From Eledone cirrhosa (lineage: Eukaryota): a stretch of 64,000 bases of DNA. The position numbers and the translations under genes are program-made. The stretch's first letter is position 1. Each line of letters begins with the position of its first letter. The notes under the pieces were generated by a model. That model was given only the letters and a program-made list of their open reading frames with translations, was not told the origin of the DNA and ran no database searches. Location of the stretch: assembly GCA_964016885.1 (NCBI GenBank), contig OZ024743.1:300142001-300206000 (forward strand), read 5' to 3'. Of this stretch, positions 3,001 through 63,205 are shown in pieces.

Positions 3001-3411
3001 TTTTTTTCTGTTGTCTGTATTTTGGTTGACGCTGTTATTGTTGTAGTTGGTGGGGTAATATTTTCGAAATTAGTGTTCTCAGTGTTGTCTTTGTTCCCGT
3101 TGTTTGTGGTGGTGTCTGTTGTAACAATGTTTGTAACCCTCATCTCTACTTTTTCACCGTTTCGAGACGACAGCAGATATATTGCTGGGGGGCGTGGCTC
3201 AGCCATGTTTTTCTTTTAAAACAATTTAAAAAAAAAAATTAAATGTTCAAATATTTGGGCTAAAAGGCCCAAATAATTTACTTTCCCCTTCACAGGGCAA
3301 AGTCTAAGGGCTTATATCCCTTACACAACGAGAAATATTTAACAACAAATAATTTTAACAGGCACATAAAGTGACTTACTGGGAGCAAGCAAAAAGCGTC
3401 CGAACAGACCG
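1..3411 (-). mobile_element. Tx1/L1-type non-LTR retrotransposon, 5' half: broken ORF1 (about 3206 to 1208) and ORF2 apurinic endonuclease (1207 to beyond window start)
   Basis: APE motifs GSINVRGL, ISETR, VYAP, LVGDWNGILD, SYLDRVF, TDH and YWNLN across frameshifted ORFs 977..1207 and 304..1074; degenerate zinc knuckle CYLSGRKDHLMAFC in 2032..2562; 5' end abuts (ATA)n at 3412-3440. Confidence 0.9.
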
Positions 3412-3440
3412 ATAATAATAATAATAATAATAATAATAAT

Positions 3441-4560
3441 GTATTTATAGTCAGCAGGGAGAGTAGGGATTTTCAAAAAGAAAACGTGTTAACCAATTTA
3501 GAAAATGACAATAAATTACCAAAAAAATAACAATAAACTTCTCAAATACGGGCTATCTCATCCACGGTTAACATAGGAACCCCAGAGATGGTAATCTCCC
3601 TTAATATCCAAGAGCACTATAGTTACCACTTTCCTTCCGAAACTCTCAGGCCTACAGGCGCATGGTCAGAACAGGAATATTTGCTCGGGCACTCCTTGTT
3701 ATATTCACCCACCTTTTAACAAATGAACTGTGGTGGTAATGATGGTGGTGGCATGGGGACACATCCTTCACTACTCTCATCTTCCTTTCCAGGTGGAACT
3801 TGAAAACGTTGGTGAGGGCTTGGCTGCATTTGAAAGTGTCTGTCTTCCAGTCCTTACAGTCGTGTCATCTACAAAACCTTAAGCAGAGGTAAATTGTCGT
3901 TATTTCTCAGGCCAAGGAGACGGCTGATAGTCCCATCCGGCCAAGGAGACGGCCGATAGTCCCATCCGTCCTACACGCGACTATAGCTGTTTGACAAAAC
4001 ACCACAAGTCAGCAATTCGCGTACACTTGTCGTGTGCGTACAGAACAATTTTGTCGTTCTGCGCAGATCTCGGACGCGTTCGTTTAACAGCATTTCCTTT
4101 CCAGTAGGATTTGTTTCGAACTGTCAATGATCCCACCCCCATCGCTAGCACTGCTATTTCATGGATTTCAAGTATTTATATATTGGTCTTGGACCACATA
4201 TCGCCGTTAAAGTGTGGCTAGTTGAATATTGTCGACACTCAGATTAACCCAGTACTTAATAGGCTTGTTTGGCGTGCTACTTGAGCGTTTGATACTTTCC
4301 CATTTTGGGGTTGTTGTTGTTAGTGTTAAGTATGCTGTTGCCACTGCTGCTGTTGTTTCTGATGCTGCTATATTATTGTGGCTGTTGTTGACGGTGGAGT
4401 CATTTTTGGTTGTTTCTGCAATGACGGTGGTACGGTGGTGATGTTGATGGTCACGTTCTGGCTGCTGCTTTTGTGGCATACACTGCAATTCTGAGTGATG
4501 GTCTCTTCGTGCGAAATAGCTTTGCACCCTTTTGTGAGCGCGGGGTGCAATGTCCCCTTG
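3441..4560 (-). mobile_element. Decayed Tx1-like LINE fragments (ORF2 3' end plus ORF1-like piece)
   Basis: 3785-3860 resembles the Tx1 C-terminal segment at 31590-31670; ends in an (ATT)n tail on the minus strand; 29-bp tandem duplication at about 3910-3968. Confidence 0.55.
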
Positions 4561-5679
4561 ATTTTCTAAAATTTTGAGATGTAATGTATATAAAATTTGT
4601 GATATTTGAGCCTTCGTCTAAAACCTATGGGTCCCCTTTCTGTGTCTTACAGAGCGAGGGACCACTTTAACCCAAACTGTCACCCCTCCTGGAGACAGCT
4701 ACTAGTTAGAATAACACTGGTAGTTGTGTCCCCTTATGCCACTAACCTCATCATGAGGATATTCTTGTAGTTGCACTATTTGTGCCACTGTTCGTGGTAG
4801 TTATGTTGTGTGAATTCTTCTTTATTTTCACTCTTTCGATCCTTTTTTTCAAATTGCTGTTTCATACGCTGTGAAATTTAATAACTATCTAGCTGTTATA
4901 TCCAGTAAAGTGTTTCCATACATCTGACTATGTATTATACATAAAATGCTAACATAATGAATCACACGAATTCCCTATATTCTCACACAACTTCATCATT
5001 CTAGATTACGAGGACCTCTTCATATTGGTTTTCTTTGCTATAATTAATTCGCATACCTTTATATGTGAATATTGGAATATTGAAATGAAAATCAACTTTC
5101 AGGAGAGGATACATAATTAATACAAACATTAACATTCTGATATTTGCAATACTGACAACCAACAATCTACTAAATTGTGAAGCACAAATGTCCATTCGAA
5201 AGAAAAAGGTTTCTTCTTAGCTAGAGGAAAATACACAGGAACCACATATTTTACATCCATGATTGACAGTTTAGAGTCTCAAGGCAAGTAGCACAGCATA
5301 TTTAAATTTTCGATATTCATTTCACTCAGCATAAGAAAAAAAAAGGTTACCTAGGCCGCTAGATATTACTACACCGCAAAAAAGAAAAAGAAACAAACAA
5401 ACAAACAATATTTGCGACGAAACCTTTTTAAATTGTTACAAACTTTGTAACTCTAAAAACCTAACACCAATAAAAATAAAAAAATAAATAAAATATTTGG
5501 TTGGAAATTCTCTGAAGCGATGGTGTAAATCATAATTTAAAACAAATAACTGAACTCTGTTTCATTTATTCAACATTTTCAACCCTCTTGTATATATACA
5601 TATATCTTACTGCTGAATCCCTTCCTAGTGAAACAGGGGAAATTAGACAGGAGTATGCATAATTTTATAGCAAGAAAGC

Positions 5680-7122: not shown

Positions 7123-7193
7123 TAAAATAACAGATTAAAGTTTAATCAAAGAATCGCTGCTTTCACCCTTAACGGGATCTTCTGAAACTCGAC

Positions 7194-8390
7194 GTGTGTA
7201 TGGGCGCCAGTGACTCTGCGGAGGTTACTGATCTTATTGGCCTTTTCCTTCTTTTCTCTATCAAGGACGAATTCCCCAACGCGGGCGGTGGTTTGTACCG
7301 TGACGATGGTCTTTTGACCATGACTAAGTGCGCACCTGGTGCTTGCGACAGGTTCAGAAAAGAACTCACAGCCTTCTTTAAAGGCTTCAACCTCTCTATA
7401 CAGGTTGAGGCCAATCTCTCGGTCGTTAATTACCTCGACGTTACCCTCAATTTATTGAATGGGTTGTATTACCCGTATAGAAAGCCGAATGATACGCTTA
7501 ATTACATAAGTAAGCATTCCAACCATCCTGCCAGCATAACCAAGAACCTGGTAAGAAACGTTTCGTTGAGGCTTTCCCGTCTTTCCACCAACCAGCGCAT
7601 TTTCAACGACCATTCCACTTATTACAATGAAGCTCTTGCTCGAAGTGGATTTGCCGATAAGGTAGCATATACAGAGTACGAAAATGGACCTAGAAGAAAT
7701 AGACCCCGTCGCATTTGTTGGTTTAACCCACCATATAATATGGAGGTGGCCACACCATTAGCTAAGATCTTTCTTTCCCTTATTACGAAGCATTTTCCCC
7801 CTACACATAAATATAGTAAAATTTTTAATAGAAATAATATTAAAATTTCTTACTCTACGACTCCTAACCTTGCACATAACATCACAGCTTCAAATTTAAC
7901 TAAACTAGCTAGCCGTAGGAGCACGTGCAACCCTGTAGTTAGTACTAACTGTAATTGTAGGAATCGGGCTGATTGCCCCCTATCCGGGAAATGCCTCTCT
8001 ACTAACATTGTCAACAAATGTAAGGTTGTAACACCCATGTCCCGTAGGGCCTACATAGGGTTAACCGCCAATAGTTTCAAGCAGCGTCTTTACATGCATA
8101 CCCATTCTTTTCGTTACCCTCTAAGAAGGAATATGACGTCACTTTCAGCTTATATCTGGAGTCTAAAAGACAACCACACCCAATATAAGTTACACTGGGA
8201 GATCCTAGCTAGGGCTAGATCGTATAACGGAAATAAAAGACCATGTGATCTCTGCGTCGCTGAGGCCCTGGAAATACTCTACGCTACAGACCACATCTTA
8301 AACAAAAAATCTGAGGCAGTTTCGGCTTGTAAACATAAATTGCACAAAACCTTCCTGTATTACAGCCCCACGTTATACCCTAACGGATAG
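7194..8390 (+). CDS. PLE reverse transcriptase C-terminal half plus GIY-YIG endonuclease (open, 5'-truncated)
   Basis: MGASDSAE, YRDD, NYLDVTL, YRKPN, SNHP, WFNPPY; linker CNCRNRADCPLSGKC; AYIGLT..FKQR..H; CDLC..E; LNKKSE. Confidence 0.9.
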   Translation: MCMGASDSAEVTDLIGLFLLFSIKDEFPNAGGGLYRDDGLLTMTKCAPGACDRFRKELTAFFKGFNLSIQVEANLSVVNYLDVTLNLLNGLYYPYRKPNDTLNYISKHSNHPASITKNLVRNVSLRLSRLSTNQRIFNDHSTYYNEALARSGFADKVAYTEYENGPRRNRPRRICWFNPPYNMEVATPLAKIFLSLITKHFPPTHKYSKIFNRNNIKISYSTTPNLAHNITASNLTKLASRRSTCNPVVSTNCNCRNRADCPLSGKCLSTNIVNKCKVVTPMSRRAYIGLTANSFKQRLYMHTHSFRYPLRRNMTSLSAYIWSLKDNHTQYKLHWEILARARSYNGNKRPCDLCVAEALEILYATDHILNKKSEAVSACKHKLHKTFLYYSPTLYPNG

Positions 8391-9319
8391 CACGATCTAT
8401 ACGTGGATATTTTACGTCTTGATGTGGGAGCTAAGTATATGTTTTGTTTATTCCTTTACTTATTTGCATAGGTAAGTATATATTATCCATATGTTTTGTG
8501 AAGGTATGTATACCTTCTCGTACGTATATTTGACTGTTATAGCGTATAATTTTTATATATTCTGGTATTTAGGGTTTGGCTATGTGTATACGGGAGTTTT
8601 GCGTCCGCGTGAGTGTGCAGGTTCGTACGTATGGTGGGTGTGTGTATATGTGTACTTCTTGTTTTAGTTGACTTACGTCTCCGAACATTCGTGTATTTAT
8701 ATGTAGGTATGCGTGTGCGCTTGTTATATACGTATTTATTTACTTATATACGTTTATATAATTATTTATTTATTTGCACACAAGCATACACACACACACA
8801 TATTTATATGTGCGTGGTTTTGTATACCCATGGCAAGGTTTTGCGTATGCTTGTGTATGTACGTATCTGTTTGCGTGTATGTATTTATTTGTTTCTATTA
8901 CTTCTGTATTGTACTTATTTACTTTGTTCTTATCTCTGTAGCGGAGATTCATTTGGTCTCCTAGTTAGAATTTTAGTCTACGATTTCTGCTATACCATTT
9001 ACGTGGTTTTGTCTTTGCGTGCTATTGTTCTCCACGCTCCACATATGACTTATTATCTTCGTTTTTTCGTTCATTGCCTGAGAACGTCTCTATGCACCAC
9101 CTAAGAGAACATTAGTCTACGACCTCTTTTATACCATAAACGTGGTTTTGTCTTTGCGCGTACTTGTTTTTCACCGCTCCTATTAATGACGTATCATTCG
9201 TTTTTTCCTGTTCTTTGCCAGCGAACGTTACCACGAACCAAAGTATCGTCTTCCTGTCTTTCCTCCGGTTGCAACGTTTTTTGAAATATCCAGTTCTGCG
9301 TTTACAGATTGACTTTGTT

Positions 9320-9370
9320 AGTTTCAGAAGATCCCGTTAAGGGTGAAAGCAGCGATTCTTTGCTTAAACT
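9320..9370 (+). ncRNA. Hammerhead-like motif of PLE family B with CAGAAGA core; copies at 7139-7189 (-) and 17780-17830 (+)
   Basis: AGTTT-CAGAAGA-TCCC GTTAA GGGT-GAAA-GCA..TGC-TT-AAACT. Confidence 0.7.
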
Positions 9371-9485
9371 TTAATCTGTTATTTTAATAAATATTTGCTC
9401 TACGGTTCTTATATATTTGATATATATTTTCCTTATCGAGCCCTCTTTGGATTTTAGTCTTCAATTTTATTATTATTACTATTAT

Positions 9486-17299: not shown

Positions 17300-17937
17300 A
17301 TTATTTGGTCTATACGTTCGTATGTGTGCGGTACAGGCGTTGTGTGGGTACTATATCTGCGTGTGTGTTTTTTATTTTATTTTATTTTAATATTTTATTT
17401 TTTGGTGTACATGCTACTATTTGCATACCCATGGGGAGTGTTTTCGCGCATGATTGTGTATGTACGTATATGGATGTGTGTATATATATATATTTAATTT
17501 CAATTACCTTTTTATATTATTTATTCAATTCTTAACTCTGAAGCCGAGAATCATCCGTTTTCCTAAATAGAATGTTAATCTACGACGTCAGTTATGCTAT
17601 TTATGTGGTTTTGTCTTCGCGTGTAATTGTTTTCACTGCACAAATAATGAAGTATTATCTTCGATTTTTCCGTTCTTTGCCAGGGAACGTTCCCACGAAC
17701 CAAAGTATCGTGTTCCTGTCTTCCTTCGGTTGCAACGTTTTTTGAAATATTTACTTCTGCGTTCACAGATGACTTTTCTAGTTTCAGAAGATCCCGTTAA
17801 GTGTGAACGCAGCGATTCTTTGCTTAAACTTTAATCTGTTATTTTAATAAATATTTGCTCTACAGTTCTTATATATCTGATATATATTTTTAAAAATCGA
17901 GCCCTCTTTGGATTTTAATCTTCAAATTTATAATTAT

Positions 17938-20450: not shown

Positions 20451-22995
20451 AACGAAGGAGTTGTGGTAAGGAACCAGATGGACCATAACGCACCAGCGTA
20501 CTCAATACTTATGGTAGTAGAGTGGGTAATAGGAAAATGTATGACTCTGGCGGCATAGCTCAAGTCGTTGCGTTGGCTATTTCTTGATTTAATCAGAATT
20601 TTTAGCCTGGTAAATAAATAGCCGAACGTTTCAAGGGGTATTTCCTTATATGGGAATATTGTAGTTGTCAAGATGATTGGTCAACATTTCTTGTAAACAC
20701 AATTAAGTATATCATGACAGTGGTTGGGTGGTGGGGGTGGATGACTTGTCTGTAGAGCAATGAGGGAGTGGGTGGAGCCGGTCAAGCGTTGAAAGTGAAA
20801 TCTATACAGCAAATTCTAAGGATTGTGTATGAAAGTAGGCCAGAGGATGCAGGCGAAAAAGGGTTCTAGAGAAAATAGAGGAGGGACGTTATAGAATAGG
20901 TAAATCAATTGAGATTTGGAGATAATAAAAAAAATAATAGAAAGATATATAAAAATATAAAATTGGATAGTAAGAAGTGATAAAAAACAAACACCGTGGA
21001 GTCTAAAACAGCTGCTATATTTAGTTCGTGGTGCTTTTTAAGCCAATGCTATAGAATAGGTTAATACCTTGAGAATAAGTTTGCAGGGTTATTTTAAATC
21101 CAGAGTCCCGAGACTGGGGATTTAAAATAACCCTACAAGCGTCCCTAACTCGAGTCAATTTCCTGGACGTTACCCTCAACCTCGAAAATGATCTGTACTA
21201 CCCATACAGGAAACCAAACGACAACCTGCACTACAACCACCGCCGATCTAACCATCCTAGAAACATCACCAATAACCTGGTTAAACACATCTCCCTCCGC
21301 ATAACTCATTTCTCTGCTAATGAGCAGATATTCGACGAACAATCAGGCCCTCAAGCGAAGCGGCTTCCGGGAGGAAATATCCTTTTATCCAGCTTCCCTT
21401 AGCGGAACCTGCAGGCGACGCCGCCACTCACGTCACGTGACGGGGTTCAACTCTACCCACAATGCCGAGGTGGCAACACCAATTGGGAAAATCTTCTTTG
21501 GGCTCCTCGAAAAACCATTCCCACCACAACACCGCTACCACAACATAATCAACAAAAACACTATCAAACACTCCTACAGCACCACACCGAACTTCGCACA
21601 AAACATCGTCTCCTCAAACAACAAAACACTCAACCCCTATGGAAGAAATAACCTATACATTAGTGGATAGCCGACCAGGAGGTGTAACTGCTCTGATAGA
21701 TCTACGTGCCCCCTCAATAACAGAGAACGTAACGTGATCTACCAGTGAAACGTGAGGACGGACACCTACAACAAAGCTTATATAGGAATAATCGCTTGTG
21801 ACTTTAAGACCCGGCTCTACCAACACCGACATACGTTCCGAAACCCGGTCCGATGACATGCCACTACACTTTCGGGCCACATCTGGGATCTCCAAGATAA
21901 TAACATAACATACAACTTTACTTGGAGCTTACTGTCCAGAGCTAACTCCTACACTGGAGGACGCCGTCCGTGTAACCTATGCTCGGAGGAAACATTACAA
22001 ATGATGTTTACGAAGGACCAACTCCTAAACAAAAAAGACGAACTGGTAACTGCATGCAAACACCAATTGCGTAGGACTTACATCGCCCTCAAACCCTCTA
22101 ATGACCCGGGTGGGTAGACAATGGCTGATCCCACTTGCCGAATAATATAGGGGAAACACCAGCTTACATCGGTACATGTACTTCTTCTTTTCCTCTCTGT
22201 TTTCTTCTTCTTTTTGTCTCCTCACTTCCTTCCACTCCCGATTTTCTTCCTCTTTCTTTTTCCCCCTTTCGCCTACACCGATGCAGCCCATCGGGCCTCT
22301 GTAGCTTCTGTACACCACCCCAGCAAATTACAGATAGTATTGGCCGAAAACGCAATACTAACTAATCATAGTAGCTGTGTTAGACCCCAGAGATTTTGAA
22401 TTACTTTTTGCTACCCCATTCTATAATTTCAAAAATTCTTATTTAGTATCTTCTATTCTCAACTTATTAACCTATTCTATAGCATTGGCTTAAAAAGCAA
22501 CACCAACTAAATATAGCAGCAGTTTTAGACTCCACAGTTTTTGTTTTTTATCACTTCTTAATATCCAATTTTATATTTTTATATATCTTTCTCTTATTAT
22601 TTTATTGTCTCCAAATCTCAATTCATTTACCTATTCTATAACGTCCCTCCTCTATTTTCTCCAGAACCCCTTTACGCCTATTTCCTCTGGCCTACTTTCA
22701 TACACAATCCTTAGAATTTGCTGTTTAGATTTAACTTTCAACACTTGACCGGCTCCACCAACTCCCTCATTGCTCTACAGGCAAGTTCAGCCACAAAACC
22801 TCCCACCGACTGCCATGATAGACTTAATTGTGTTTACAAGAAATGTTGACCAATCATCTTGACAACTACAATCTTCCCATATAAGGAAGTACCCCTTGAA
22901 AAGTTCGGCTATTTATTTAACAGGTTAAACATTATAATCTAGTCCAGAAATAGCCATCGAAACGGCTTGAGCTCTGCCGTCGGGGTCATATATTT
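20451..22995 (+). mobile_element. Penelope-like element family C, 5'-truncated: inverted pLTR 20451-21065, broken RT/GIY-YIG about 21113-22117, pLTR to about 22995
   Basis: NFLDVTL, YRKPN, SNHP, CNCSDRSTCPL and YIG motifs; 20540-21065 is the reverse complement of 22465-22990. Confidence 0.9.
22891..22986 (+). ncRNA. Hammerhead ribozyme of PLE family C with U3-A8 core (TTGAAAA)
   Basis: ACCCC-TTGAAAA-G..GGCTATTT loop AAATAGCC..C-GAAA-CGGC..GCCG-TC-GGGGT. Confidence 0.75.
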
Positions 22996-23756
22996 TCATA
23001 ATATATATAAAACAATATGGATGCAGTAGACACCTATTAGACCATTAATGTCCAGATTACTCGATATTTGGGGTAGTAGAGTTTGGTAATATAGACATCG
23101 TAGTCCTCTGATGTTGACATCTATTTCAATTGCCAGAACACCGGTGATTCAGTTTGGAACTAGTTTTTGAAATGGCAAGAGCTCAGCCATTGCGATCGCG
23201 ACTCTTTCATATATATATATATATTAATTTCAACAATGTCATTATTCCGCGTGTCATAATTCTCGATTATCATAGGTTCAAACTTAAATTAATATGCATA
23301 ATGGCCATGAGGGAGTGAGGGGGAGTGAGCGGCAAAGTGAGCGTTGTGTTTGGATACAGTATGTATTTGTATCAGTGTAGAGACATGTGTGTGTGTGTGA
23401 TGTGTGTGGAAATAAGAAGGGAAGGAAAGCAATAACTATAAACATGTGTGCGTGTGTATGTACGTGAGCCTATGTTTGTGTGTGTGTGCGTGCAGCATTT
23501 CACAGAAACTAAAAACTATCAACATGTGTGAGTGTGTGCGTGTGTGTAAGTGCACAGGTGCGTGTGTAAGTTTGCGTGCGTGTGCGCGTTACCATGCGTG
23601 TATGTGCGTGTACGTGCGGCATTCCACAATCGCCACGCAGTTTATCTGGATGTGTACCTGTCTGTCAGTCTAACGTACACAGTGTTGTGAAAGGAGTAAA
23701 TAGGGACCTTTTTTTACATTGACGGACATCTTTTATATTAATTATCTATATCTATA

Positions 23757-28025: not shown

Positions 28026-31000
28026 CGTTTCTTTATTGGCCACAAGGGCTAACTCGAAGAAAAATATTAGGGACGACACACAACAGTACAGGACGATACA
28101 AAGTGGGTTTTGCTCGTGAAAACAGGTTATAACAAAATTGGGCTAGAAATCAAAAAAATTCAAACAACAAAAAATCACCAAGAGCGCGAAACCTCCGAGG
28201 GTTAGTCGTGGCGAAATCCACTCAAAAAGGCCAATGACAACCTTACCACCAGGGCAAGCGCGCGCTCTCACTTTTCCCACTCCTCAGTCTGCAGGCGTAT
28301 ACTCAGAGCAGGCATTTCACTCGGACCAGACTCGCCACTCTCACCCACCTTTCAACAAACTTACTAGAAGACATCACTTACCTCTCCACCCTGATTTTCC
28401 TCTTCGAGTGAAACTTGAAAAAGTTAATCAGGGATTGGCCGAAGAGGAAAATGTCCGCTTTCAACCCTTTCAACATTGTCCACCACACTATTTCTTTCGC
28501 CACGGCCACCAGGCAGTTGAACACTGCCTGCCCTTCCTCCTTTTTAAAGGAGGATGGTGGGGCTATCTGCACAATGAACTCAGTCGATAACCGGATCTGT
28601 CTTACATGCGATAGAAGCTGTTCGACATAGCTCCACAAGTTAACAATCCTCGGGCACTGAACAGTGCGTGCAGGACGGTTTGCGACGCCCTGCGCGCATC
28701 TCGGATAGGCTCGGTTAACAGCACCCCCGTGCCTGTAGAGCTTATGCCGAACCGGCAACGCTCCCCGGTAGCACTACCACGATAACCTCCATCTCATGCG
28801 ATACATTATATAGAGGCTGGTTAAGGAACCTGGCACGGGTAGAGCGCTGATCAACTTGGATCAATCTAAAGCATTTGATAGGGCCGACCATCGGTACTTG
28901 GGCGCGGTCCTCAAAGTGGCCGGCTTCGGGCCCGATTTCAGGAGCTGGATCGCTGCGATGCACAGCGACATCTGCTCGATTGTGAGGGGGAATGGTCACC
29001 TGTCGCAGCCTTTCAGCATCATGCGCTCGGTCCGCCAGGGTTGCTCCCTCTCGTACACCTTGTACGTACTGGCCCTAGAGCCGTTACTGCACACATTGGA
29101 GACGATGGGGCGGGGGGGTCACGCGACCTGGGATGCGGGACCGTGGTGGCGTCTAGCACCAAACACGTCCAGATGCTTGGCACCGCTCTCAAGGATTACG
29201 AAGCGGTGACAGGAGCAAATATAAACCAAGAAAAGTCGGTGGGCTTGCAACTCGGCATCTGGAGAGGCAAATCCATGCCGTCCAACAGCGTCGTTGTGCG
29301 CTGGACGGAAGGACCGGTTAAATTGCTGGGGGTCTGGTTCTGTCCGGACCTCCAGATGGAGAAAAAACTGAAGCGAGGCTTTTACACTTTCCTGCCCTAT
29401 CTACTAGCCCCATCGTGCATCTAAGATTCCGTTCCAGTCGCCTACTAACACTAAAGAGCGCGACGTTCCAAGAAAGGTCTCTAGCCGTCTGAAGAAATGT
29501 GGAGGTCCTGCCTCTGCTGGGGCATAGACGGCTACTAGCCTGAAAGCATTGCCTTCGCTGCCGGTCACGTCCAACACCACCGACTTACCTTCTGGGGCCA
29601 GGAAGATGGCCCGTGTGGCGAGAACCAAACCTATCTGAAAACGTACGGCAACCCCTCCCCCCGTATCCGCCGGGTTGCCGTGCTTCGGATATTCTGGTCT
29701 TGCTGATGGCCACCATATCTATGTTTAGTGGCCTGAGGTCGTTGAGCAGTTCCCTGCTTCCAAGATGACCCCAGGCCACGTATATTTATACTGCCTATTC
29801 TAAGTACGGCCATGTTGAATAAGAGACGGGGTAAGTGAGAAAGGATGATTTACTTTGATCGTGTAGTGAATGGACAGTAGAACCGTCCCTTTGGCTGATT
29901 ATGAGTTTTCGAAGAGGATGTCGGTGTATATCCTCTGCAGTCTCTAACTGCGTTGGGAAATTTTTGTTTTAAAAGTTTGTAATGTTCTATTTTGATTTCA
30001 ATGATGTTTATGTTTGTCGGGAGAGTTCTTGGTGTTGCTGGGGTGTAGTAGTTTTTTTCTGTGATGTCTGTGTTCTGATTTATATGTTGTAAGAGTTCTT
30101 TATTTGCCATGTTTATGGCTGTGTACTTTTTGGGGGAAGCGTGTTTTGTTGCTGTTTTCTTGTTTTTGCTGTTGGGTGTGTGTGTTTTGTTGTGTTTGCG
30201 ATGTTGGTGTTTTTGGCGATGCTGGTGTTGGTGTGGTTGTAGTTGTTGATGATGCTTGTGGTGGTGATGGTGATGGTGGTGGTGTTGCTGCAAGTATCCT
30301 TGCAGCCTTTACCCCTCTTCGTTTGCCTTCGCTTTTGGAGGGTGAAGATAAGGGGTCTCTCATTTTTTGTTTTTTGTGGCAGACAGTTTTCCACTTCCCT
30401 CGCGCGTCATACTCCATATCGGATTTCGTGGCGTCTGGGAGGCGTATGAGCTCCATAGCTGTTGGTGGTGCTAGTGGAGCCCGCTCCGGCGATTTTGCCG
30501 CCGATGTAGCTACTGCGACTGTTGGTGTTGCCGCCACTGCTGTCGCTGTTTTAGTTGTCCGTGGCCTTGTATGGGTTCCACGGACGTTGCCCTCCTATTC
30601 ACCATGGAAGTGTCTTCTGCCTCTGTTGCCTGCCCTGTTCTTGGTTGCAGCTTATCCGGCGTCGGAAGGAGGGATGCCCTCTTCTGGCTATCTAATTCGG
30701 GCAGAAGGACTGGAGGTGACCCTTCTGCCCACAGATATAGCAGTTAGGGCCCCTTCCTTCAACGATTATAGGGAGCTGGAGTCCTTCTTCGCAGTTTATA
30801 ATATCTGGGATGGCCTCGATGCACTCCTGGTCAGTCTGTATTAGCATTTGCATGCCTATTCCTGACCATTTCTCTCTTCCCATTCTCTGTATTTGAAGTA
30901 TGGTGGTCTTCTCCTCGATTCCAGCAAGTACAGATGCGTTCTGCCAAGGTATGGGCACATCGGGCGGGGCCTGGGTCAATTTGACCCTCACAATTTTCTT

Positions 31001-31568
31001 CTAGCAGTAGGAGGGACACAATAGTATCTTCTCACTCCTTAACGTTCCCAAAGTGTGAGACCAAAAGGTGGCGAAATGTACGTCTACTGTGGCGTACTTT
31101 TTGCCTCGGGAGATGTGGGTTTTGGGCGCGCAGACGCCCACCAAAGCCTTTTGGATTTGAGCCTCCGTGGCTCTCTGCACCCGATGTGACATATTGCTTA
31201 CGGTGCGGTAAGTCACCGTGCGCAGCTGCTGGTCTTTGAAAAAATCGGGTTGAGGTTTCAGGAAAACTCTATTTTCATTCCTTATCACCATGGCTCTTGC
31301 GCCTGCCATCCCCTCCTCCGTGACTAGTACTCTCTCTATATTTCGGGCCGCACCTGCGAAAGAAGTGGCCCCTTTTTCAGCGGCACCATTATTGCTGCCG
31401 CTTCCTCTGCTATTGGTCTTCTTGTTGGTGGTGTTGTTTTTGCTACTGCTACAAACGGTGTTGTTGGTTTTGTTGCTGTTATCACTGTTGTAGTTGTTTG
31501 TGTTTTTGGTGCCACCGTTGTTGTTGTTTTCTGTGCAATTTGTATTGTTGCTGTTGGCGTTGTTTATC
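28026..31568 (-). mobile_element. Tx1-type LINE copy with internal deletions and an inverted RT segment (28777-29371 on +)
   Basis: AATAAA plus (ATT)n tail at 28021-28037 (minus); C-terminal LPVRHKL; plus-strand DQSKAFDR, SVRQGC and KLLGVWF; endonuclease and ORF1 homologous to 690-2950; zinc knuckle CYICGQKGHLQSFC. Confidence 0.9.
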
Positions 31569-33365
31569 TTCTCTTTCCACCATCATCTTCCTTTCCAGGT
31601 GAAACTTGAAGAAGTTGATGAGGGATTGGTCGAAGAGAAAAGAGTCTGTCTTCAGTCCTTTCAGCCTGGTCTACCTTACAAACTCTTTCGCAACTGCCAC
31701 CAGACAGAGGAATATTGCCTGCCCTTCCGATAGCTGGATCCATTCCACACCCGAGTGTAGCAGTTCGACATAACTCCACAAGTCAGTAATGCACGGACAT
31801 TGGGCGAGTGCGTGCAGAACGGATTCGTCGCACTGCGCGCATCTGCGAGGGATTTCTGGAAGTTATCCTTCATCCCCGGCTCGAAAGTCCTCCGGAACAC
31901 ACTGGTCAGTTCGACTTCGTCGAAGCCCAGAGCCTCTCGGAATGCGTCGTCGCACTTCCCCACCACTACTCCTCTATAGACGTTGAGAATGGAAGTTCCA
32001 CTGACCACATTGCCCAGCTGGTAGAGGGCAGTGAGTAACTGGCAACATTCCAGATGACAGTCACCCAGTCTCCGTCTCTTCTTGACCCAGAACTGCAGCT
32101 CAGTCAAAGAGACGAGCTGCAGAAAGGCCTGTCTTATAAACGGCGACCACATCTGTTCACCGTTTAGGCAGAATATTTGGAGATGCCGCAGTCTCAGTGC
32201 ATTTTTGCGCATCATTAACCAAGGCATGTGCAGCCATCTGCGTAGAGGGTGCTGGCATCAGATGGACCGTCTCACTAACTGGACCTGTCCACTCCACAAT
32301 AATTTGAAGAGGAGCCGTTCCAAGTTGGCGAGGCGCGTACGGGGCCAAGGCACGAGGGTCTGTGATAGATTCCTCGCAGCCCATTTCTAAGTGAGTCTGG
32401 CTACTCTGCTCGTTACCTGGTCCCAATTCTTATCTAACTGAGGTCTGGTCCGAACCAAACCCCGAGCAACTTTATCGGTCCCTCCGTGCAGCGCCCAGCG
32501 ACGCTGTTGGACGGCATGGACTTGCCTCTGAAGGAGCCGAGCTGCAGGCCCACCGACTTTTCCGGGTTAGGTTTCTCTCCTATCAACCATTCATATTCCT
32601 CCAATAATGTGCCGACCACCTCAATTTCCCAGGTGTCTGACAACATCACGGTAATATCGTCGGCATAAGCCAACACAGTCTTTAAGCGTCCCGGTTCGAG
32701 CGGGATGCCCTGCAACAGGTCAAGCCTTCGCAGTAAAGGCTCTAGATTCAATACGTAGAGAAGGGAAGAGAGAGGGCACGCTTGCCAGAGCGATCGGGAG
32801 ACCTGAAACGGTTCCAAGAGGTGTGCATTGCAGTTTGTGAAGCCGGGGCCGAAGCCAGCCGCCTTGAGGTACCAATTGTTAACCCTATCGAATGCTTTCG
32901 ATTGATTTAAATTGATCAGAGCCCAAACCGAAGCCATGTTTACACCCTTCCCTATCTATGATGTATCGCATGAGATAGAGTTTGTCATGTATGGACCTTG
33001 TCGGGATTGCGCAACTTTGCGCCTTCCCAACCAAACCCTCGACGACAAGCGCTAACCTCTGCGCTAACACCTTGGCCAAAATCTTAAAATCTGTGTTAAG
33101 CGGAGTTAAGGGCCTCCAGCTGGCTAATATATCCCTCTTGTTCTCGCCTTTCCTTATCAGCATCACTACACCCCATTTTACAGAATTGGAATACTCCCGT
33201 TCTGCTGCCAGTTGCAGTAGAGCGCTTCGAGGAGATCGGAGAACAAGTCTGACATATTTACGTAAAGCTCGAAGGGCAGACATTCGAAACCAGGTGTTTT
33301 GCGCCTTGTGCATCCTGAATTTCGGCTGAAGTAATCGGCCTTTCGCAGCTCTCAGCGAGTGTGAA
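31569..33365 (-). mobile_element. Further decayed Tx1-type ORF2 (RT and C-terminus)
   Basis: CERPITSAEI, KTPG..LPFELY, WRPLTPLNTDFKILAK, QSKAFDRV, YADDITV. Confidence 0.9.
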
Positions 33366-34200
33366 TGCATGTCTCTGTGTTCTTTATATGCACATAAATA
33401 TTAAGTATGCGGGATTTATCCGCACATAATTGAAATTCGTATTTACCCATCTACTCTCCGTACATCTAAAATAGTTGTTGCTTTCAACCAAATGCCTTCC
33501 AAAAACCGATTTAGAGTAGCGTATTCTCTCTTGCTGTTATGGTTTATGAATGCGGAATACATAATAAATCGTATGAGAATATTAATATTATATTAAAAAA
33601 AAAATGATAGATTTATTTTTTAAGAAACAATCTTCTCAATTTTCTTAGAAATTCTACTAGAATTATGGGATGTTTGCATCATAATGTCAGGAATTTCTTT
33701 TCCATTCAATGCAAGATATATATTCTGTTTTATAAAGGAGGATGTTTAACTCAGTTTTCAATTGATCTCGTTCTTACACTCTGAAATCACAACAGTATTT
33801 CTATTGTGGAATTGCAATATTGATTTCTTTTTAATAGTAAAAAGATCAATACTCTAACGGAGCAGTAGATATTCGAATGGAATCCGGTAACTTTATTACC
33901 ACAATGATATGTATTTGACGTTATTCAGATTAGGAAAAATCAGTTTTTGTGAGATTCTCTACGTGTTAATTCAAATTGTTTAAAATAGCGCACCAACTCC
34001 CCTTAAACTGCATAAATATTTTTTGTTCATATTTTTATCCACGTACCTGAATGAAGGGCCAGTTAAAGAGTGCCACCTTTATTATACAGTGATGGACATG
34101 ACTGGCTGATCACCAAAAACATTGTTGACACATTCATGTTAATTCATGAAATGTTATATTGTTTAATGTATCAAACTTTTAATGTTTAAACTATATATAT

Positions 34201-38430: not shown

Positions 38431-38899
38431 GCAGGTTCATACATATAATTATGTGTGCTACAGTGTATACACCAACGTGCTCTAGATTTGTGGATAAAGA
38501 AGGTCGCTACTTAAATCATAAGCGACGCATCTATAAACATGTTTAGGATTCAACAGATGAATACTTTGGCAAGAGACGAATGCACTTTCATTTCTTTTCC
38601 TGTCACTAAGATAGTTATCAATCAAACCTGAACTCAAAATTAAGAAAAAGAGAAAAGTATATACGTACTTTTGATTACTTATAGGATATACTCGACTTTC
38701 GCTGAAGATCCTACTAGGTCCGAAAAATTGATTAAATGTGTCTGTTTTGTCTTCAATTGACAGAGAATATCGTATTTCCTTGCATGTATATATTAAAAAT
38801 GTGAATATGTATATACACATTGGTGCAGTGTCTGTACAGATATAACTACATTGTACACTTGGGTTACTTAATGCACTTCTTAATATATATGAATACAAA

Positions 38900-41800
38900 A
38901 AAATTGTGATAAGGAACCAAATGGACCATAACGCACCAGAGTACTCAATTGTTAGGGTAGTAGAGTGGGAAATAGGAAAAAGTATGACCCCGGCGGCAGA
39001 GCTCAAGCCGTTTCGACGGCTATTTCTGGACTAAATTAGAATTTTTAGCCTGGTAAATAAATAGCCGAACTTTTCAAGGGGGTACTTCCTTATATGGGAA
39101 GATTGTCGTTGTCAAGAGGATTGGTTAAAATTTGTTGTAAACACAAATAAGTCTATCGTGGCATTTGGTGGGAAGTAGGGGTGGCTGAACTTGCATGTAG
39201 AACAATAGTGAAGTGAGTGGAGCGGTCAAGCGTTGAAAGTGATATGTATACATCATATTCTAAGGATAGTGTATGAAGTGTGTGTGTGTGTGTGTGGGGG
39301 GGGGGGGTTATAGAATAGGTAAATCGAAAGAGAGTAGGAGACAATAAAAGATACTAGAAAGAAATAAAAAAAATATATATATATAAAATTAGATAGTGAG
39401 AAATGAATAAAGAAATCACAATGCTATCTTACAATTACAGGTTAATAAGTTGAGAATAGAAAATAGAAATTACAAAATAGATACAAACTTAAAGGTTTTT
39501 ATTTAAACATCTGCTATAAGTAGTTAGTAAAACGTATTCGGTCAATTCTATCTTAAAATAACAGGGGTGTGGGAACTGATGCTACAAGGCCTGATGGGCT
39601 GCATCGGGGTAGGCGAAAGGGAAAGCAGACTAGGAAGAAAGTAGGGGGTGGAAGGAAGTGATAGGATTAGACACGGGGAAGAAGGAGACCAAAGAGGAAA
39701 AGAAAAGAGATACATTTACCTATGTAAGCTAGGATTTCCCCTAACTTATTCGGCAAGTGTGTGTATGTGGAGGGGGGGTATAAGTCCTTGTCTACCCACC
39801 CGGGTCGTTATAGGGTTTAAGGGCGAGGTAAGTCCTACGCAATCTCTGTTTGCATGCGGTTACCAGTTCATCTTTCTTGTTTAGGAGTTGGTCCTTCGAA
39901 AACAACATTTGTAATGTTTCCTCCGAGCATAAGTTACACGGACGGCGTCCTCCCGTGTAATAGTTAGCTCTGAACAGTAAGCTCCAAGTGAGATTGTAGG
40001 TTATATTGTTATCTTGGAGGTCCCAGATGGGGCCCGAATGTGTAGTGCCATGTCGCAGGACCAGGTTTCGGAAAGTGTCGGTTTTGGTAGAGCCGGGTCT
40101 TGAAGTCACACGCGGTTAATCCTATATAAGCTTTGTTGGAGGTGTCCGCCCTCACGTTGCACGGGTAGATCACATTACGTTCTCGATCCTAGACCGAGTT
40201 ATACCAAAAGTTAAGCAAAACGTGAGACTTAGCTTATGGAAGTAATCTCATGGTTCAGGAGTATGGAGGACAAACGAGACACAAAATTCATCCAGTTTGA
40301 CATAGAGAGTTACTATGCATCTATTACATTACCGCTGCTTACCGCCTTGGACTTTGCCGAAACACTCACGCCCATCACTGACAGGAAAGAAATATCATTC
40401 TCCACGCCAGGAAGACAGTCCTATTTTTCGACAACTCCAAGTGGATAAAGAGAGCTCCAGACCCCCCTTCGACGTCAGTATGGGCGCGACGGATTCGGCC
40501 GAGGTCACAAATCTTATAGGATTATTCCTTCTATTTAAACTCACCGAAATGTTTACTGCATTCGGCAGTGGATTGTACCTGGATGATGAGCTCCTCACCC
40601 TCAAAGGGTACAACCCCAGTAGTATAGACCGGGTCCGTAAACAAGCGAAAATGATCTGTAACACCCATACAGGAAACCAACCGACAGCCTGCACTACATC
40701 CACCGCCGCTCTAACCATCCTAGAAACATCACCAATAACCTGGTTAAAAACATCTCCCTCCGCATATCTAGTTTGTCCGCTAAAGAGCAGATATTCGACG
40801 AACACGCACCTCATTACAACCAGGCCCTCAAGCGGAGTTGGTTCCGGGAGGAAATATCATTTTATCCAGCTTCCCTTAGCGGAACCAGCAGGCTACACCG
40901 CCACTCACGCAACCTAACGTCGTTCAATCTTCCCCACAATGCCGAGGTGGCAATACCTATCGTGAAAATCTTCTTTAGACTCCTCGAAAAACATTTCCCA
41001 GAACAACACCGCTACCACAACATAATCAACAAAAACACCATCAGACTCTCCTATAGCACCACACCTAACTTCGCAACAAAACATCGTCTCCTCAAACAAC
41101 GAAAAACTCAACCCCTATGGAAGAAATAACCTAGAAATCAGTGGAGAGCCGACCAGGAGGTGTAACTGCCCTGATAGATCCACGTGCCCCCTCAACAACA
41201 AATGTCGAGAACATAACGTGATCTACCAGGGCAACGTGAGGACGGACACCCCCAACAAATCTTATATAGGATTAATCGCGTGACTTCAAGACCCGGCTCT
41301 ACCAACACCGACACACTTTCCGAAACCCGGTTCGGCGACATGCCACTACACTGTCGGGCCACATCTGGGACCTGCAAGATAACAATATAACCTACAATCT
41401 CACTTGGAGCTTACTGTCCAGAGCTAACTATTACACGGGAAGACGCCGTCCGTGTAACTTATGCTCGGAGGAAACATTATAAATGCTGTTTTCGAAGAAC
41501 CAACTCCTAAACAAAGAAAGATGAACTGGTAACCGCATGCAAACAAAGATTGTGTAGGACTTACCTCGCCCTCAAACCCTATAACGACCGGGGTGGGTAG
41601 ACAAGGACTGATATCGCGCCCCCGCACACACACTTTCCGAATATGTTAGGGAAAACCCCAGCTTACATAGGTAATTGTATCTCTTTTCTTTTCTTTTCCT
41701 CTTTGTCTCCTTCTTCCCCCTCTCTCATCCTATCACTTCCTTCCACCCCCTATTTTCTTCCTCGTCTGCTTTCCCCTTCCGCCTACCCCGATGCCGCCCA

Positions 41801-44800
41801 TCGGGCCTTGTAGCATCAGTTGCCCCACCCCTGTTATTTTAAGATAGAATTGGCCGAATACGTTTTACTAACTACTTATAGCAGATGTGTAAAAAACCCT
41901 TTAAGTTGGTATCTGTTTTGTAATTTCTATAAGTTTTTTTCTATTGTCAACTTATTAACCTGTAATTGTAAGATAGCATTGTGATTTCTTTATTCATTTC
42001 TCACTATCTAATTTTATATATTTTTTTTATTTTTTTATTTATTTTTATTTATTTCTAGTATCTTTTATTGTCACCTACTCTCTTTCGATTTACCTATTCT
42101 ATAACCTTCCTCCCCCACTTCATACACTATCGTTAGAATCTGAGGTATACATATCACTTTCAACGTTTGACCGCTCCACTCACTTCCCTATTGTTCTACA
42201 GGCAAATCCAGCCACCCCTACTTCCCACCAGAAGCCATGATAGACTTATTTGTGTTCACAACAAATTTTAACCAATCCTCTTGACAACTACAATCGTCCC
42301 ATATAAGGAAGTACCCCCTTGAAAAGTTCGGCTATTTATTCACCAGGCTAAAAATTCTAATTTAGTCCAGAAATAGCCAACAAAAGGGCTTGAGCTCTGC
42401 CGTCGGGGTCATACTGTTTCCTATTTCGCATTCTACTACACTAAGTATTGTGTACTCTGGTGCGTTATGGTCCATTTGGTTCCTTACCACAATTCCTTTG
42501 TTATTTAGCTCCTATCTCTGTAGTAGAGCACTTTCCGACCCTACCACGCCATATCCCGATTTTTCTATCCAGCTCAAGTTTCTTCACCCGCAGGATGCGA
42601 AAACACAACATCGACTTCTCCACCAAGAACATCCCAGTTCCCCCGAGAAAACTTTTTACCTTCGGATGCTCACGCAAAAAATCGACCTTTTTGTGAAATG
42701 ACTAAGATGGAGAACTTTTTTCTACGATAGATACCGCGTCAATATGGACTTCGACACCAAGGAGAGATTCGGATTCAATACCTACAAATCTCACCCTCCG
42801 AACCCTATGCTCTTACCCTTCGAGAACGACCTTTTCCACCTGGTCAAGAGCATTAAATTCAAACGCAGACACAACAGATTCCTACAACAACTCCGTAGCA
42901 AAATAACAGAGTATGAAAACACCAACGACATCATGGTGCACTCGGACAAAACTGGAAACCTCTACTTCGTTAACCCTGACACATACCACACACTGATCAG
43001 GAGCAGCCTAAATTCCACCTATAAAAAGGCTAACCATTCAACTTTCGAGGACATAAATCGAGATGGACAACAAATTACCTCTAGACTCGGGGTCGCCGAC
43101 CGCACTGAACCCCTAGACCCAGGGACTCCCTACTTCACACTGAAGGACCAATAATCCGACTTCGACCGCAAACCATCCATTAGGCTTATAAACCCAACGA
43201 AGTCGGACATATGGAGCATAAGTAAAAAGATCCTAGACCGAGTTATACCAAAAGTTAAGCAAAACGTGAGACTTAACTTATGGGTCAGCACCCAGGAAGT
43301 AATCTCATGGTTCAGGAATATGGAGGACAAACGAGACACAAAATGAATCCTGTTTGACATAGACAGTCACTATGCATTTATTACATTACCGCTCCTTACG
43401 GCCGCCTTGGACTTTGCTGATACACTCACGCCCATCACTGACCAGGAAAGAAATATCATTCTCCACGCCAGGAAGACAGTCCTATTTTCGACAACTCCAA
43501 GTGGATAAAGAGAGCTCCAGACTCCACCTTCGACGTCAGTATGGGCGCAACGCATTCGGCCGAGGTCACAAGTCTTATAGGATTATTCCTACTATTTAAA
43601 CTCACCGAAATATTTCCTGCATTCGGCGGTGGATTGTACTGGGATGATGGGCTGCTCACCCTCAAAGGGTACAACCCCAGTAGTACAGACCAGGACCGTA
43701 ATCAACTAATCAACTTCTTCCGGGACTGGCGATTTAAAATCACCGTACAAACGACCCTAACCCGAGTCAATATCCTGGTTGTTACCCTTAACCTCGAAAA
43801 TGATCTGTACTACCCATACAGGAAACCAAACAACAACCTGTACCACATCCACCGCTACTGTAACCATGCTAGAAACATGACCAATAACCTGGTTAAAAAC
43901 ATCTTCCTCCGCATATCTCGTCTGTCCGCTAAAGAGCAGATATTCGACGAATACGCGCCTCATTACAACCAGGCCCTCACGCGGAGTGGCTTCCGGGAGG
44001 AAATATCCTTTTATGCAGCTTCCCTTAGCGGAACCAGCAGGCGACACCGCCGCTCCGGAAACGTAACATGATTCAATCATCCCCAGAATGCCGAGGTGGC
44101 AACACCTATCGGGAAAATCTTCTTTAGACACCTCGAAAAACACTTCCCACTACAACACCGCTACCACAACATAATCAACAAAAACACCATCAAACTCTCC
44201 TGCAGCACCACACCTAACTTCGCAACAAAAGATCGTCTCCTCAAACATCAAAAAACTCAACCCCTATGGAAATAATATCCTAGACATCAGTGGAGAGCCG
44301 ACCAGGGGGTGTAACTGCCCTGATAGATCCACGTGCCCCCTCAACAACAAATGCCGAGAACATAACGTGATCTACCAGTGCAACGTGAGGACGGACACCT
44401 CCAACAAAACTTATATAGGATTAACCGCGTGTGACTTCAAGACCCAGCTCTACCAACACCGACACACTTTCCGAAACCCGGTTCGGCGACATGCCACTAC
44501 ACTGTCGGGCCACATCTGGGACCTGCAAGATAAAAATATAACCTACAATCTCACTTGGAGCTTACTGTCCGTGTAACTTATGCTCGGAGTAAATATTACA
44601 AATGCTGTTTTCGAAGGACCAACTCCTAAACAAGAAAGATCAACTGGTAACCGCATGCAAACACAGATTGCGTAGGACTTACCTCGCCCTCAAACCCTAT
44701 AACGACCCGGGTGGGTAGACAATGGCCTATACCCCCCCCCCCCCCCGCACACACACACTTGCCGAATAAGTTAGGGGAAACTACAGCTTACATAGGTAAA

Positions 44801-44982
44801 TATACCTCTTTTCTTTTCCTCTTTGTCTCCTTCTTCCCCCTGTCTCATCCTATCACTTCCTTCCACCCCCTATTTTCTTCTTCGTCTGCTTTCCCGTTCC
44901 GGCTACCCCGATGCAGCCCATCGGGCCTTGTAGCATCAGTTGCCTCACCCCTGTTATTTTAAGATAGAATTTGCCGAATATG
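38900..44982 (+). mobile_element. PLE family C compound locus: inverted 3' part 38900-40185, truncated copy 40185-41600, pLTR 41600-42497, near full-length tandem copy, partial pLTR to 44982
   Basis: 38900-40185 is the reverse complement of the GIY-YIG/pLTR region; tandem direct copies of RT-EN. Confidence 0.92.
42595..44718 (+). pseudogene. Near full-length PLE RT/GIY-YIG ORF with stops and frameshifts
   Basis: MRKHNIDFSTKNIP, HSDKTGN, RLINPTKS, FDI, MGATHSAE, YWDD, CNCPDRSTCPLNNKC, YIGLT..FK, LNKK. Confidence 0.88.
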
Positions 44983-45128
44983 TATAAAGTAAACACAGTA
45001 AACCCGTGTTAAAATTACGAGGGTAGATTACACCACAAATGTTATTTATCATTCAACCTGAATCATATGGGATTTTACAAGATTTGTTACAAGATTTCTC
45101 ATACATACCATATCAATAACCAGTTCAT

Positions 45129-45734: not shown

Positions 45735-46227
<493 letters not shown>

Positions 46228-46232
46228 TATAA

Positions 46233-46291
<59 letters not shown>

Positions 46292-46292
<1 letters not shown>

Positions 46293-62825: not shown

Positions 62826-62859
<34 letters not shown>

Positions 62860-62866
<7 letters not shown>

Positions 62867-63205
62867 AAAAAGTATGACCCCGACGGCAGAGCTTAAGCCG
62901 TTTCGAATGCTATTTCTGGACTCTACTACCCTAAGTATTGAATACTCTGGTGCGTTATGGTCCATCTGGTTCCTTACCACATTTCCTTTGTTATATATAT
63001 AACAAAGGAAATGTGGTAAATAGGAAAATGTTTAATCCCGACGGCAGAGCTCAAGCCATTTCGACGTCCAGAAATAGCCGTCGAAACGGCTTGAGCTCTG
63101 CCGTCGGGGTTAAACATTTTCCTATTATCCACTCTACTACCCTAAGTATTGAGTACTGTTGTGCGTTATGGTCCATTTAGTTCCTTACCACACTTCCTTT
63201 GTTTT
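62860..63205. mobile_element. Scrambled, partly inverted pLTR tails of PLE family C (HHR 3' half only)
   Basis: Matches 42360-42495 in both orientations; another short piece at 48958-49033. Confidence 0.85.

What the first reader, a model, noticed from the sequence alone, without database searches (positions are those of the whole stretch)
22891..22986. PLE family C hammerhead with compensatory U3-A8 catalytic core
Stems I (ACCCC/GGGGT), II (GGCTATTT/AAATAGCC, G-C closing pair) and III (CGGC/GCCG), GAAA and a GUC site are all in place, but the core reads UUGAAAA rather than CUGANGA. The same core occurs at 39071-39077 (-) and 42319-42325, so it is a family trait rather than decay. Established: positions 3 and 8 form a tertiary Watson-Crick pair, so C3-G8 to U3-A8 preserves pairing. 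Canonical motif searches would miss this ribozyme.
Basis: partly seen in the sequence, partly recalled or inferred. Interest (0 to 1): 0.75.

Follow-up and report, generated by a model that had tools for sequence, protein, structure and literature searches.

The report
Penelope hammerhead with loosened core pair
This is a hammerhead-ribozyme motif at the end of an abundant Penelope-type jumping gene; its U-A core pair is already in print, but sister subfamilies spread with a mismatch at that pair, and many short genomic copies begin exactly at the predicted cut site, which likely records partial self-cutting of the RNA in the animal.

Summary
The motif is real: a type I hammerhead (core UUGAAAA 22896-22902, predicted cut 22981|22982) in the pseudo-LTR of a broken, Hydra-type Penelope-like element. 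U3-A8 is a subfamily trait and is already published for natural hammerheads (PMC3088659) and for Penelope elements (PMC4209133). But the pair is not strictly compensated. Of 4,825 genomic matches, the first 100 all have A8, with U3 in 71 and a C3·A8 mismatch in 28. Only 6 of 26 G8 matches are canonical C3-G8. An ORF tree puts C3·A8 lineages between two U3-A8 lineages (one U3 clade rejected, p-AU 1e-21). Position 7 takes all four bases while the other core and stem positions stay fixed. 5'-truncated copies peak at the cut site (485 matches; 80 at +3, 27 at -3), and 13 of 41 inspected have both arms ending there. This count covers sister subfamilies, not the window's own. Best reading: a weak, partly cleaving ribozyme on an element copied mostly from uncut RNA. 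No cleavage assay or RNA data. The scan noted U3-A8, the mismatch and cut marks before, on other DNA.

The parts
22883..23001 (+). Type I hammerhead motif including the distal extension of helix I
   Evidence: Sequence, fold, alignment and pair counts
22896..22902 (+). 5' core U3 U4 G5 A6 A7 A8 A9
   Evidence: family counts
22903..22958 (+). Helix II: G10.1-C11.1, small internal loop, 8-bp helix (9 in most copies), internal loop, second helix (three changes from the family in this copy)
22959..22981 (+). G12 A13 A14 A15.1, helix III with palindromic loop GAGCUC, U16.1, C17; predicted cut 22981|22982
   Evidence: dimer fold -72.3 versus 2 x -29.2 kcal/mol
22940..22945 (+). Place (about -42 to -37 from the cut) where most short copies of the family begin; likely transcription start (inferred)
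   Evidence: 32 of 71 tail-bearing copies start between -35 and -45
22982..23001 (+). Short tail (+1 to +20) ending in a TA run; likely one of two reverse-transcription starts (inferred)
   Evidence: (loose ends at +20 and +100 followed by TA repeats), PMC11167929
21108..22117 (+). 5'-truncated ORF remnant: end of RT, CxCx5C linker, GIY-YIG endonuclease; frameshift and stops
   Evidence: tblastn and translation
22118..22882 (+). 3' untranslated part / pseudo-LTR
20451..21077 (-). Inverted arm of the same insertion, with a decayed hammerhead (core TTGAAAC 20634-20628) and the long tail (+100) ending in a TA run
38895..40185 (-). Inverted arm of a second insertion; U3-A8 core 39077-39071 but GCC at the cut triplet
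40646..44983 (+). Partial tandem: ORF end, pseudo-LTR with damaged hammerhead (core 42319-42325), then a near-whole broken ORF from ATG 42595, 191 nt after the cut site

Best explanation
The motif is a type I hammerhead in the pseudo-LTR of a Hydra-type Penelope-like retrotransposon, and it likely cuts the element's RNA after GUC only weakly or part of the time, so that whole copies would be made from uncut (or re-joined) RNA. Shown: the fold, its place between the ORF end and the next ORF start, fixed copy ends at +20 and +100 past the cut site, a free position 7, a loose 3-8 pair across subfamilies, and a sharp excess of copies that begin at +1 in sister subfamilies. Inferred: transcription starts near -42, inside helix II; the element's protein starts reverse transcription at +20 and +100 on the two nicked strands of a TA repeat; uncut RNA gives copies with the whole ribozyme, cut RNA gives stubs that begin at +1, often as head-to-head hairpins; because copying must cross the cut site, a slow core (U3-A8, C3·A8, U3·G8) is tolerated and may be favoured. 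U3-A8 arose at least once from C3·A8, so it is a repair of a mismatch rather than a direct swap of C3-G8. This genomic copy is a broken, truncated insertion.
For: Selection on the hammerhead shape: across majority sequences of 9 subfamily groups, 0 of 12 core and 0 of 28 stem positions vary against 35 of 85 other positions (positions 3 and 8 left out; Fisher p 8e-8; 5' half alone 0 of 15 against 25 of 51, p 5e-4). Position 7 is A 21, C 15, G 50, U 14 in the first 100 of 4,825 core-blind matches, while U4 and A6 are 100 of 100 and G5 and A9 98 of 100 (counted by eye). Loose 3-8 pair; trees of the untranslated part (88 of 129 copies, core masked) and of the ORF show nested C3·A8 lineages and two U3-A8 lineages. 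Cut marks: 485 matches starting at +1 (25 of the first 100 are extra-G insertions), 80 at +3, 27 at -3. Of the first 41 non-insertion hits, 37 are truncations and 13 have the unselected inverted arm also ending at +1 or -1 with 0-6 filler bases; in the unselected tail sample none of 48 inverted arms ended within 13 bases of the cut. Among hits with tails typical of C3·A8 lineages, 7 of 9 inspected are truncations at +1, 3 of them with letters shared at the joint. Literature: hammerhead mutants did not affect insertion by a Penelope protein in vitro and cutting needed the protein (PMC11167929); Penelope hammerheads cleaved poorly in vitro (PMC4209133).
Against: No cleavage assay and no RNA reads. 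The +1 count used tail letters that exclude the window's own subfamily; for it there is only one contig in each of two runs of one DNA sample starting at +1, and none of about 11 window-type tails in the unselected sample of 71 starts at +1. Tail-only stubs cannot be tied to a core with certainty. A second transcription start or a polymerase stop at the junction could also give a +1 peak; the three patterns differ in how easily random flanks pass. Stems show almost no two-sided covariation (2 of 36 pairs; 221 of 500 shuffles as high): they are invariant rather than covarying, and the 3' half may be conserved as promoter or protein site. No loop-bulge tertiary contact could be recognised. That weak cleavage is favoured rests on about ten master lineages only. 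Two C3-G8 copies are sisters in the ORF tree (94/80), so a small canonical lineage is not excluded.
Confidence: 0.68

Rival explanations
1. Fully compensated, efficient ribozyme: U3-A8 replaces C3-G8 and the RNA is cut efficiently; C3·A8 lineages are passengers that lost the activity.
For: U3-A8 is the commonest state (71 of 100); the youngest, short-branched clade went from C3·A8 back to U3-A8; most both-arm hairpins at +1 carry tails of U3-A8 lineages (12 of 13 among the first 41); U3-A8 is reported active in vitro (PMC3088659, passage).
Against: Copies with the whole ribozyme end 20 or 100 bases past the cut site, so their template was uncut or re-joined; C3·A8 lasted through several nested lineages and also shows +1 stubs; U3-A8 was low in a full double-mutant scan of another hammerhead.
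Confidence: 0.14
2. Catalytically dead fold kept as promoter, protein-binding or priming structure; the +1 peak is a second transcription start or a polymerase stop at the three-way junction.
For: Most short copies start near -42, not at the cut; a mismatch subfamily amplified to an estimated 1,350 copies; cleavage was not needed for insertion in vitro and no reads ended at the site in the anole element; C|G at -1/+1 fits a pyrimidine-purine start (recalled rule).
Against: The peak is one base wide and lies exactly at the predicted scissile bond, while the -42 start is spread over ten bases; filler bases are mostly A or T, not a cap-derived G; position 7 is free while 4, 5, 6 and 9 are fixed, the pattern of a catalytic core, upstream of the -42 start.
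Confidence: 0.13
3. Cleavage followed by ligation to circles: whole copies come from circular RNA, so the ribozyme is efficient in both directions (model proposed in PMC4209133).
For: Explains read-through across the cut site and the partial tandems; stable helices I and III would allow ligation.
Against: No junction or RNA evidence; most short copies start at -42, upstream of the cut, which a circle would not mark; does not explain tolerance of C3·A8.
Confidence: 0.05

Closest known systems
U3-A8 minimal hammerheads of Schistosoma mansoni Cercyon Penelope-like elements (Cervera and De la Pena 2014, PMC4209133; parts 1-2 of 4 read)
   Same: Type I hammerhead in the pseudo-LTR, U3-A8 core, long helix II, short proximal helix I, G10.1-C11.1, palindromic helix III region
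   Different: Here helix III is a stable 4-5 bp stem with a 7-9 nt palindromic loop, helix II is about twice as long with two internal loops, there is no extra base between A9 and G10.1, and sister subfamilies carry C3·A8 and U3·G8
Hydra clade of C-terminal-endonuclease Penelope-like elements (Craig et al. 2021, PMC8557442; section 11, passages and supplement passages read), e.g. Hydra-1_Obim
   Same: RW(K/R), DKT, CxCx5C linker, CxxC and CxH around the conserved E and N, TA-repeat targets
   Different: The 10 Hydra rows of their hammerhead table that I saw all have CTGANGA; Hydra-1_Obim has a different, short canonical hammerhead, so this is another family; unit length 3.1-3.6 kb
Poseidon element of Anolis (Frangieh et al. 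2024, PMC11167929; parts 1-2 of 4 read)
   Same: Two internal reverse-transcription starts past the hammerhead (tail), AT-rich targets, insertion from uncut RNA
   Different: That hammerhead is minimal with C3-G8, and no RNA ends were found at its cut site; here genomic copies pile up at the cut site
Natural core-variant hammerheads (Perreault et al. 2011, PMC3088659; passages read)
   Same: U3-A8 seen in nature
   Different: No amplified 3-8 mismatch family in the passages read

Membership tests
Type I hammerhead ribozyme | Three helices around the core, open helix I | tested here: met
Type I hammerhead ribozyme | Invariant U4 G5 A6 A9, G12 A13 A14 A15.1, U16.1, H17; free N7 | tested here: met
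Type I hammerhead ribozyme | Canonical C3-G8 | tested here: not met
   U3-A8 here; C3-G8 in 6 of 26 G8 matches and 0 of 100 core-blind matches. U3-A8 is an accepted natural variant
Type I hammerhead ribozyme | Watson-Crick pair at 3-8 kept across the family | tested here: not met
   Met in this copy and its subfamily; C3·A8 in 28 of 100, U3·G8 clade
Type I hammerhead ribozyme | Tertiary contact between helices I and II | tested here: inconclusive
   A helix I bulge and helix II loops exist, no known contact recognised by eye
Type I hammerhead ribozyme | Self-cleavage 3' of H17 | not testable with these tools
   Indirect only: peak of copy starts at +1 in sister subfamilies
Type I hammerhead ribozyme | Match to an Rfam hammerhead model | tested here: not met
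   No hammerhead family among 96 matches at E up to 1
Minimal (helix III-less) Penelope hammerhead | Helix III absent or 1-2 bp | tested here: not met
   4-5 bp helix III, 12 of its 15 aligned rows or more paired at each of the 4 inner pairs (14-15 of 15)
Penelope-like element, endonuclease-positive | RT followed by GIY-YIG endonuclease in one ORF | tested here: met
   By motifs in translations; Pfam gave no hit
Penelope-like element, endonuclease-positive | Partial tandems, inverted 5'-truncated arm, tail | tested here: met
Hydra clade | RWK, DKT, CxCx5C linker, CxxC / CxH, no CCHH | tested here: met
   LRWRTFF, HSDKTG, CNCPDRSTC, CNLCSEE, ACKH read against section 11; RWR in place of RWK
Hydra clade | Insertion into TA repeats | tested here: met
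Hydra clade | Canonical hammerhead core | tested here: not met
   U3-A8, C3·A8, U3·G8 instead of CTGANGA; described trait of known members, not a diagnostic of the protein clade
Hydra clade | Placement in the RT phylogeny with reference Hydra proteins | not tested
   Reference proteins were seen only as supplement text; compared by eye
Non-LTR retrozyme | Non-coding tandem monomers | tested here: not met
   All core types are joined to a coding ORF, 85-97% identical in DNA

The most novel reading that the evidence does not exclude
A natural hammerhead with a C3·A8 mismatch, a state expected to be nearly dead, cuts its RNA in the animal (perhaps as a dimer or with the element's protein), and this Penelope family has been held at weak 3-8 states, repairing the mismatch to U3-A8 but never spreading the canonical C3-G8, because too fast a ribozyme would destroy its own template. 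The genome would then hold a nucleotide-precise, subfamily-resolved record of ribozyme activity in vivo.
Probability: 0.3. Interest if true: 0.78.

Novelty: new variant of a known kind. Interest (0 to 1): 0.5.

Why it matters
Whether Penelope hammerheads cut in vivo, and what for, is stated as open in the papers read (PMC4209133, PMC8557442, PMC11167929). This family gives two handles. First, four natural 3-8 states on one almost identical backbone, with a resolved order of subfamilies, which is a ready-made test of how a tertiary pair evolves through a mismatch. Second, several hundred genomic stubs that begin at the predicted scissile bond, which would be a fossil readout of cleavage per subfamily. 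The U3-A8 swap alone is ordinary.

Tried and rejected
Rfam scan: no hammerhead hit. Pfam: no family for four window ORF pieces or the 670-aa frame, bar one weak unrelated hit. Sequencing runs: no RNA holder listed; the possible RNA run laid 0 contigs; no evidence either way on expression. Contig lay on a window-type copy gave only single contigs at +1. Covariation test: not above shuffles for two-sided changes. Rooting with the second Penelope family of the window: outgroup branch 0.7-0.9 changes per column, root among C3 lineages but unsupported; direction of the first change is therefore open. U3·G8 as a stepping stone from C3-G8: rejected for this family, it nests inside U3-A8 in the ORF tree (100/98), although it is the most distant group in the untranslated-region tree. 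Decay as the cause of U3-A8: rejected. One search had a faulty anchor (52 of 71 rows unplaced) and was replaced. Papers not held: Lunse 2016/17 on Penelope hammerhead dimers, Przybilski and Hammann 2007, Nelson and Uhlenbeck 2008, Martick and Scott 2006; they, and the unread supplements of PMC4209133 and PMC9901934, may already show C3·A8 families or rates. Searches for prior reports of a 3-8 mismatch family or of cut-site truncation listed none by title or abstract; most subscription journals are not covered.

Full report
OBSERVATION. The motif is present as described and folds as a three-way junction. In hammerhead numbering: U3 22896 to A9 22902, G10.1 22903, C11.1 22958, G12-A15.1 22959-22962, helix III 22963-22979, U16.1 22980, C17 22981. 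A relaxed descriptor gave 3 hits in the window, this one with the best-formed stems. Rfam gave no hammerhead match.

CONTEXT. The window lies in a 3.0-Gb animal genome; earlier scan notes call it an octopus, which I did not test. The motif sits about 770 bases after a broken ORF remnant (21108-22117) with the end of a reverse transcriptase, a CxCx5C linker and a GIY-YIG endonuclease. At 40646-44983 the same motif lies between an ORF end and the next ORF start (ATG 42595, 191 bases after the cut site), the partial tandem typical of Penelope-like elements. The motifs RWR, DKT, CxCx5C, CxxC and CxH and the TA-repeat targets match the Hydra clade as described in PMC8557442 section 11. Published Hydra hammerheads that I saw in its supplement have CTGANGA (10 rows). 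The focal insertion is head-to-head: an inverted arm (20451-21077) ending at +100 and a direct arm ending at +20, both in TA runs.

THE 3-8 PAIR. Between the window copy's own flanks the genome has 329 U3-A8 matches and 0 C3-G8. With the core left blank there are 4,825 matches; of the first 100 listed (all on one contig, some being two arms of one insertion; counted by eye) all have A8, 71 have U3, 28 C3 and 1 G3, and position 7 is A 21, C 15, G 50, U 14. With one flank type, C3·A8 has 479 matches and G8 has 26: 20 U3·G8 and 6 C3-G8. G8 with the other flank type was not counted. Six in about 480 is what post-insertion mutation at a few percent divergence would give (inference). In a tree of the untranslated part with the core masked (88 of 129 copies with 300 or more bases) the 6 C3-G8 copies need 6 changes, and C3·A8 forms a clade with nested subfamilies. 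In the ORF tree (45 copies plus 2 outgroup rows, five window-type or rearranged rows and short window-type rows left out) and a 21-row subset, C3·A8 lineages lie between the window's U3-A8 lineage and a younger U3-A8 clade (100/100); holding all U3 rows together is rejected (p-AU 1.2e-21; the group was named after I had seen the earlier trees). Whatever the root, at least one step C3·A8 to U3-A8 is needed. U3·G8 nests inside U3-A8. Two C3-G8 copies are sisters there (94/80), so a small canonical lineage near the root is possible. The root itself is unsupported.

IS THE FOLD SELECTED? Across majority sequences of 9 groups (161 of 175 copies), no core position (0 of 12, positions 3 and 8 aside) and no stem position (0 of 28) varies, against 35 of 85 others; subfamilies are related, so the p values are descriptive. 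Two-sided covariation is not above shuffles.

DOES IT CUT? A 22-base piece of the tail has 36,447 matches. Of 71 such copies examined, 48 have an inverted arm, 32 start between -35 and -45, 8 reach -60 or beyond, and 6 start at -1 to +2. Genome-wide, copies whose three upstream bases all differ from the element number 485 at +1, 80 at +3 and 27 at -3. 25 of the first 100 at +1 are extra-G insertions. Of the first 41 others, 4 are indels or internal deletions and 37 are truncations; by eye 6 of these share letters with the inverted arm and are ambiguous. 13 of the 41 have the inverted arm, which the pattern did not select, also ending at +1 or -1 with 0-6 filler bases (the script lists 14; I drop L257, whose filler is 38 bases); none of 48 inverted arms in the unselected sample ends closer than 14 bases to the cut. 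Of 10 inspected +3 controls 6 are ambiguous by script, and several -3 controls look like deletions between two GTC words. So about 250 clean +1 stubs stand against a few tens at most at either control (estimate). Two cDNAs that stop at the same base point to a fixed RNA 5' end, and that base is the predicted 3' product of the hammerhead. These patterns cover the C3·A8 series and the young U3-A8 clade, not the window's own subfamily, for which evidence is slight. A further 21 hits picked by tail type show +1 starts also with tails typical of C3·A8 lineages.

MECHANISM. Copies with a whole ribozyme end 20 or 100 bases past the cut, as with the two internal priming sites shown for the anole element, where hammerhead mutants still inserted and cutting needed the protein (PMC11167929). 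The template must therefore be uncut or re-joined. A slow ribozyme fits this, and fits the literature: Penelope hammerheads cleave poorly in vitro (PMC4209133), and in one full double-mutant scan only G3-C8 rescued the pair (PMC9901934, passages). Helix III with its palindromic loop favours a dimer in silico (-72.3 against -58.4 kcal/mol), a possible switch. The likely role of the cut is to free unit RNA from tandem or read-through transcripts (proposed in PMC4209133; inferred here). That G8A strongly lowers activity in model hammerheads is recalled; the primary papers were not held.

WHAT IS KNOWN. U3-A8 in nature: PMC3088659 (passages). U3-A8 in Penelope elements: PMC4209133. The 3-8 Watson-Crick pair: PMC3884650 (passages). 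Also seen: PMC6765202 and PMC6155905 (passages), bioRxiv 10.64898/2026.07.22.740005 (part 1 of 5). I found no report of an amplified C3·A8 family or of genomic cut-site stubs, with the gaps listed under Tried and rejected. Earlier scan notes reported each piece separately; one gave me the lead to the Hydra clade.

VERDICT. Observation confirmed, interpretation partly supported. The swap itself is known. The family-level picture, a hammerhead that passes through a mismatch and leaves cut-site stubs, is a new variant of a known kind and makes an open question testable. Interest 0.5.

Noticed in passing
window 9313-9375 (+) and 17773-17835 (+): A second Penelope family (ORF piece 7173-8387) has a hammerhead-like arrangement read by eye: stem I AGUUU/AAACU, core CAGAAGA (A at position 4), helix CCC/GGG, GAAA, helix AGCAG/UUGCU, CUU. 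RNAfold did not give this fold.
   Followed up: partly
window 6725, 50812, 52341 (+); 45845, 49159, 51277 (-): Canonical CTGANGA...GAAA motifs with a folded middle, most inside inverted repeats; likely other Penelope families with ordinary cores.
   Followed up: no
window 62828-63203: Cluster of short head-to-head stubs of this family that begin at GTCCAG inside helix II; genome-wide the tail has 36,447 matches against 4,825 for the 5' core.
   Followed up: partly
G000, positions -35 to -45 from the cut site (window 22937-22947): Main 5' start of short copies at TTAGTC, which resembles an initiator element (recalled); it would put the transcription start inside the ribozyme, so the RNA begins with only the substrate half.
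   Followed up: partly
L305, L306 and related loci: The U3·G8 subfamily is close to the window lineage in the ORF but the most distant in the untranslated part, which suggests recombination or fast change of the pseudo-LTR.
   Followed up: no
L264:1-300: The flank of one +1 stub looks like a U6 snRNA fragment (recalled sequence), a possible template switch to a cellular RNA.
   Followed up: no
window 307-4600 and 28100-33400: Fragments of LINE-type elements with endonuclease and RT remnants, 82% identical over 2.3 kb.
   Followed up: no
window 46036-46725: Mariner-like transposase remnant after a TA repeat, judged by eye from the translation.
   Followed up: no
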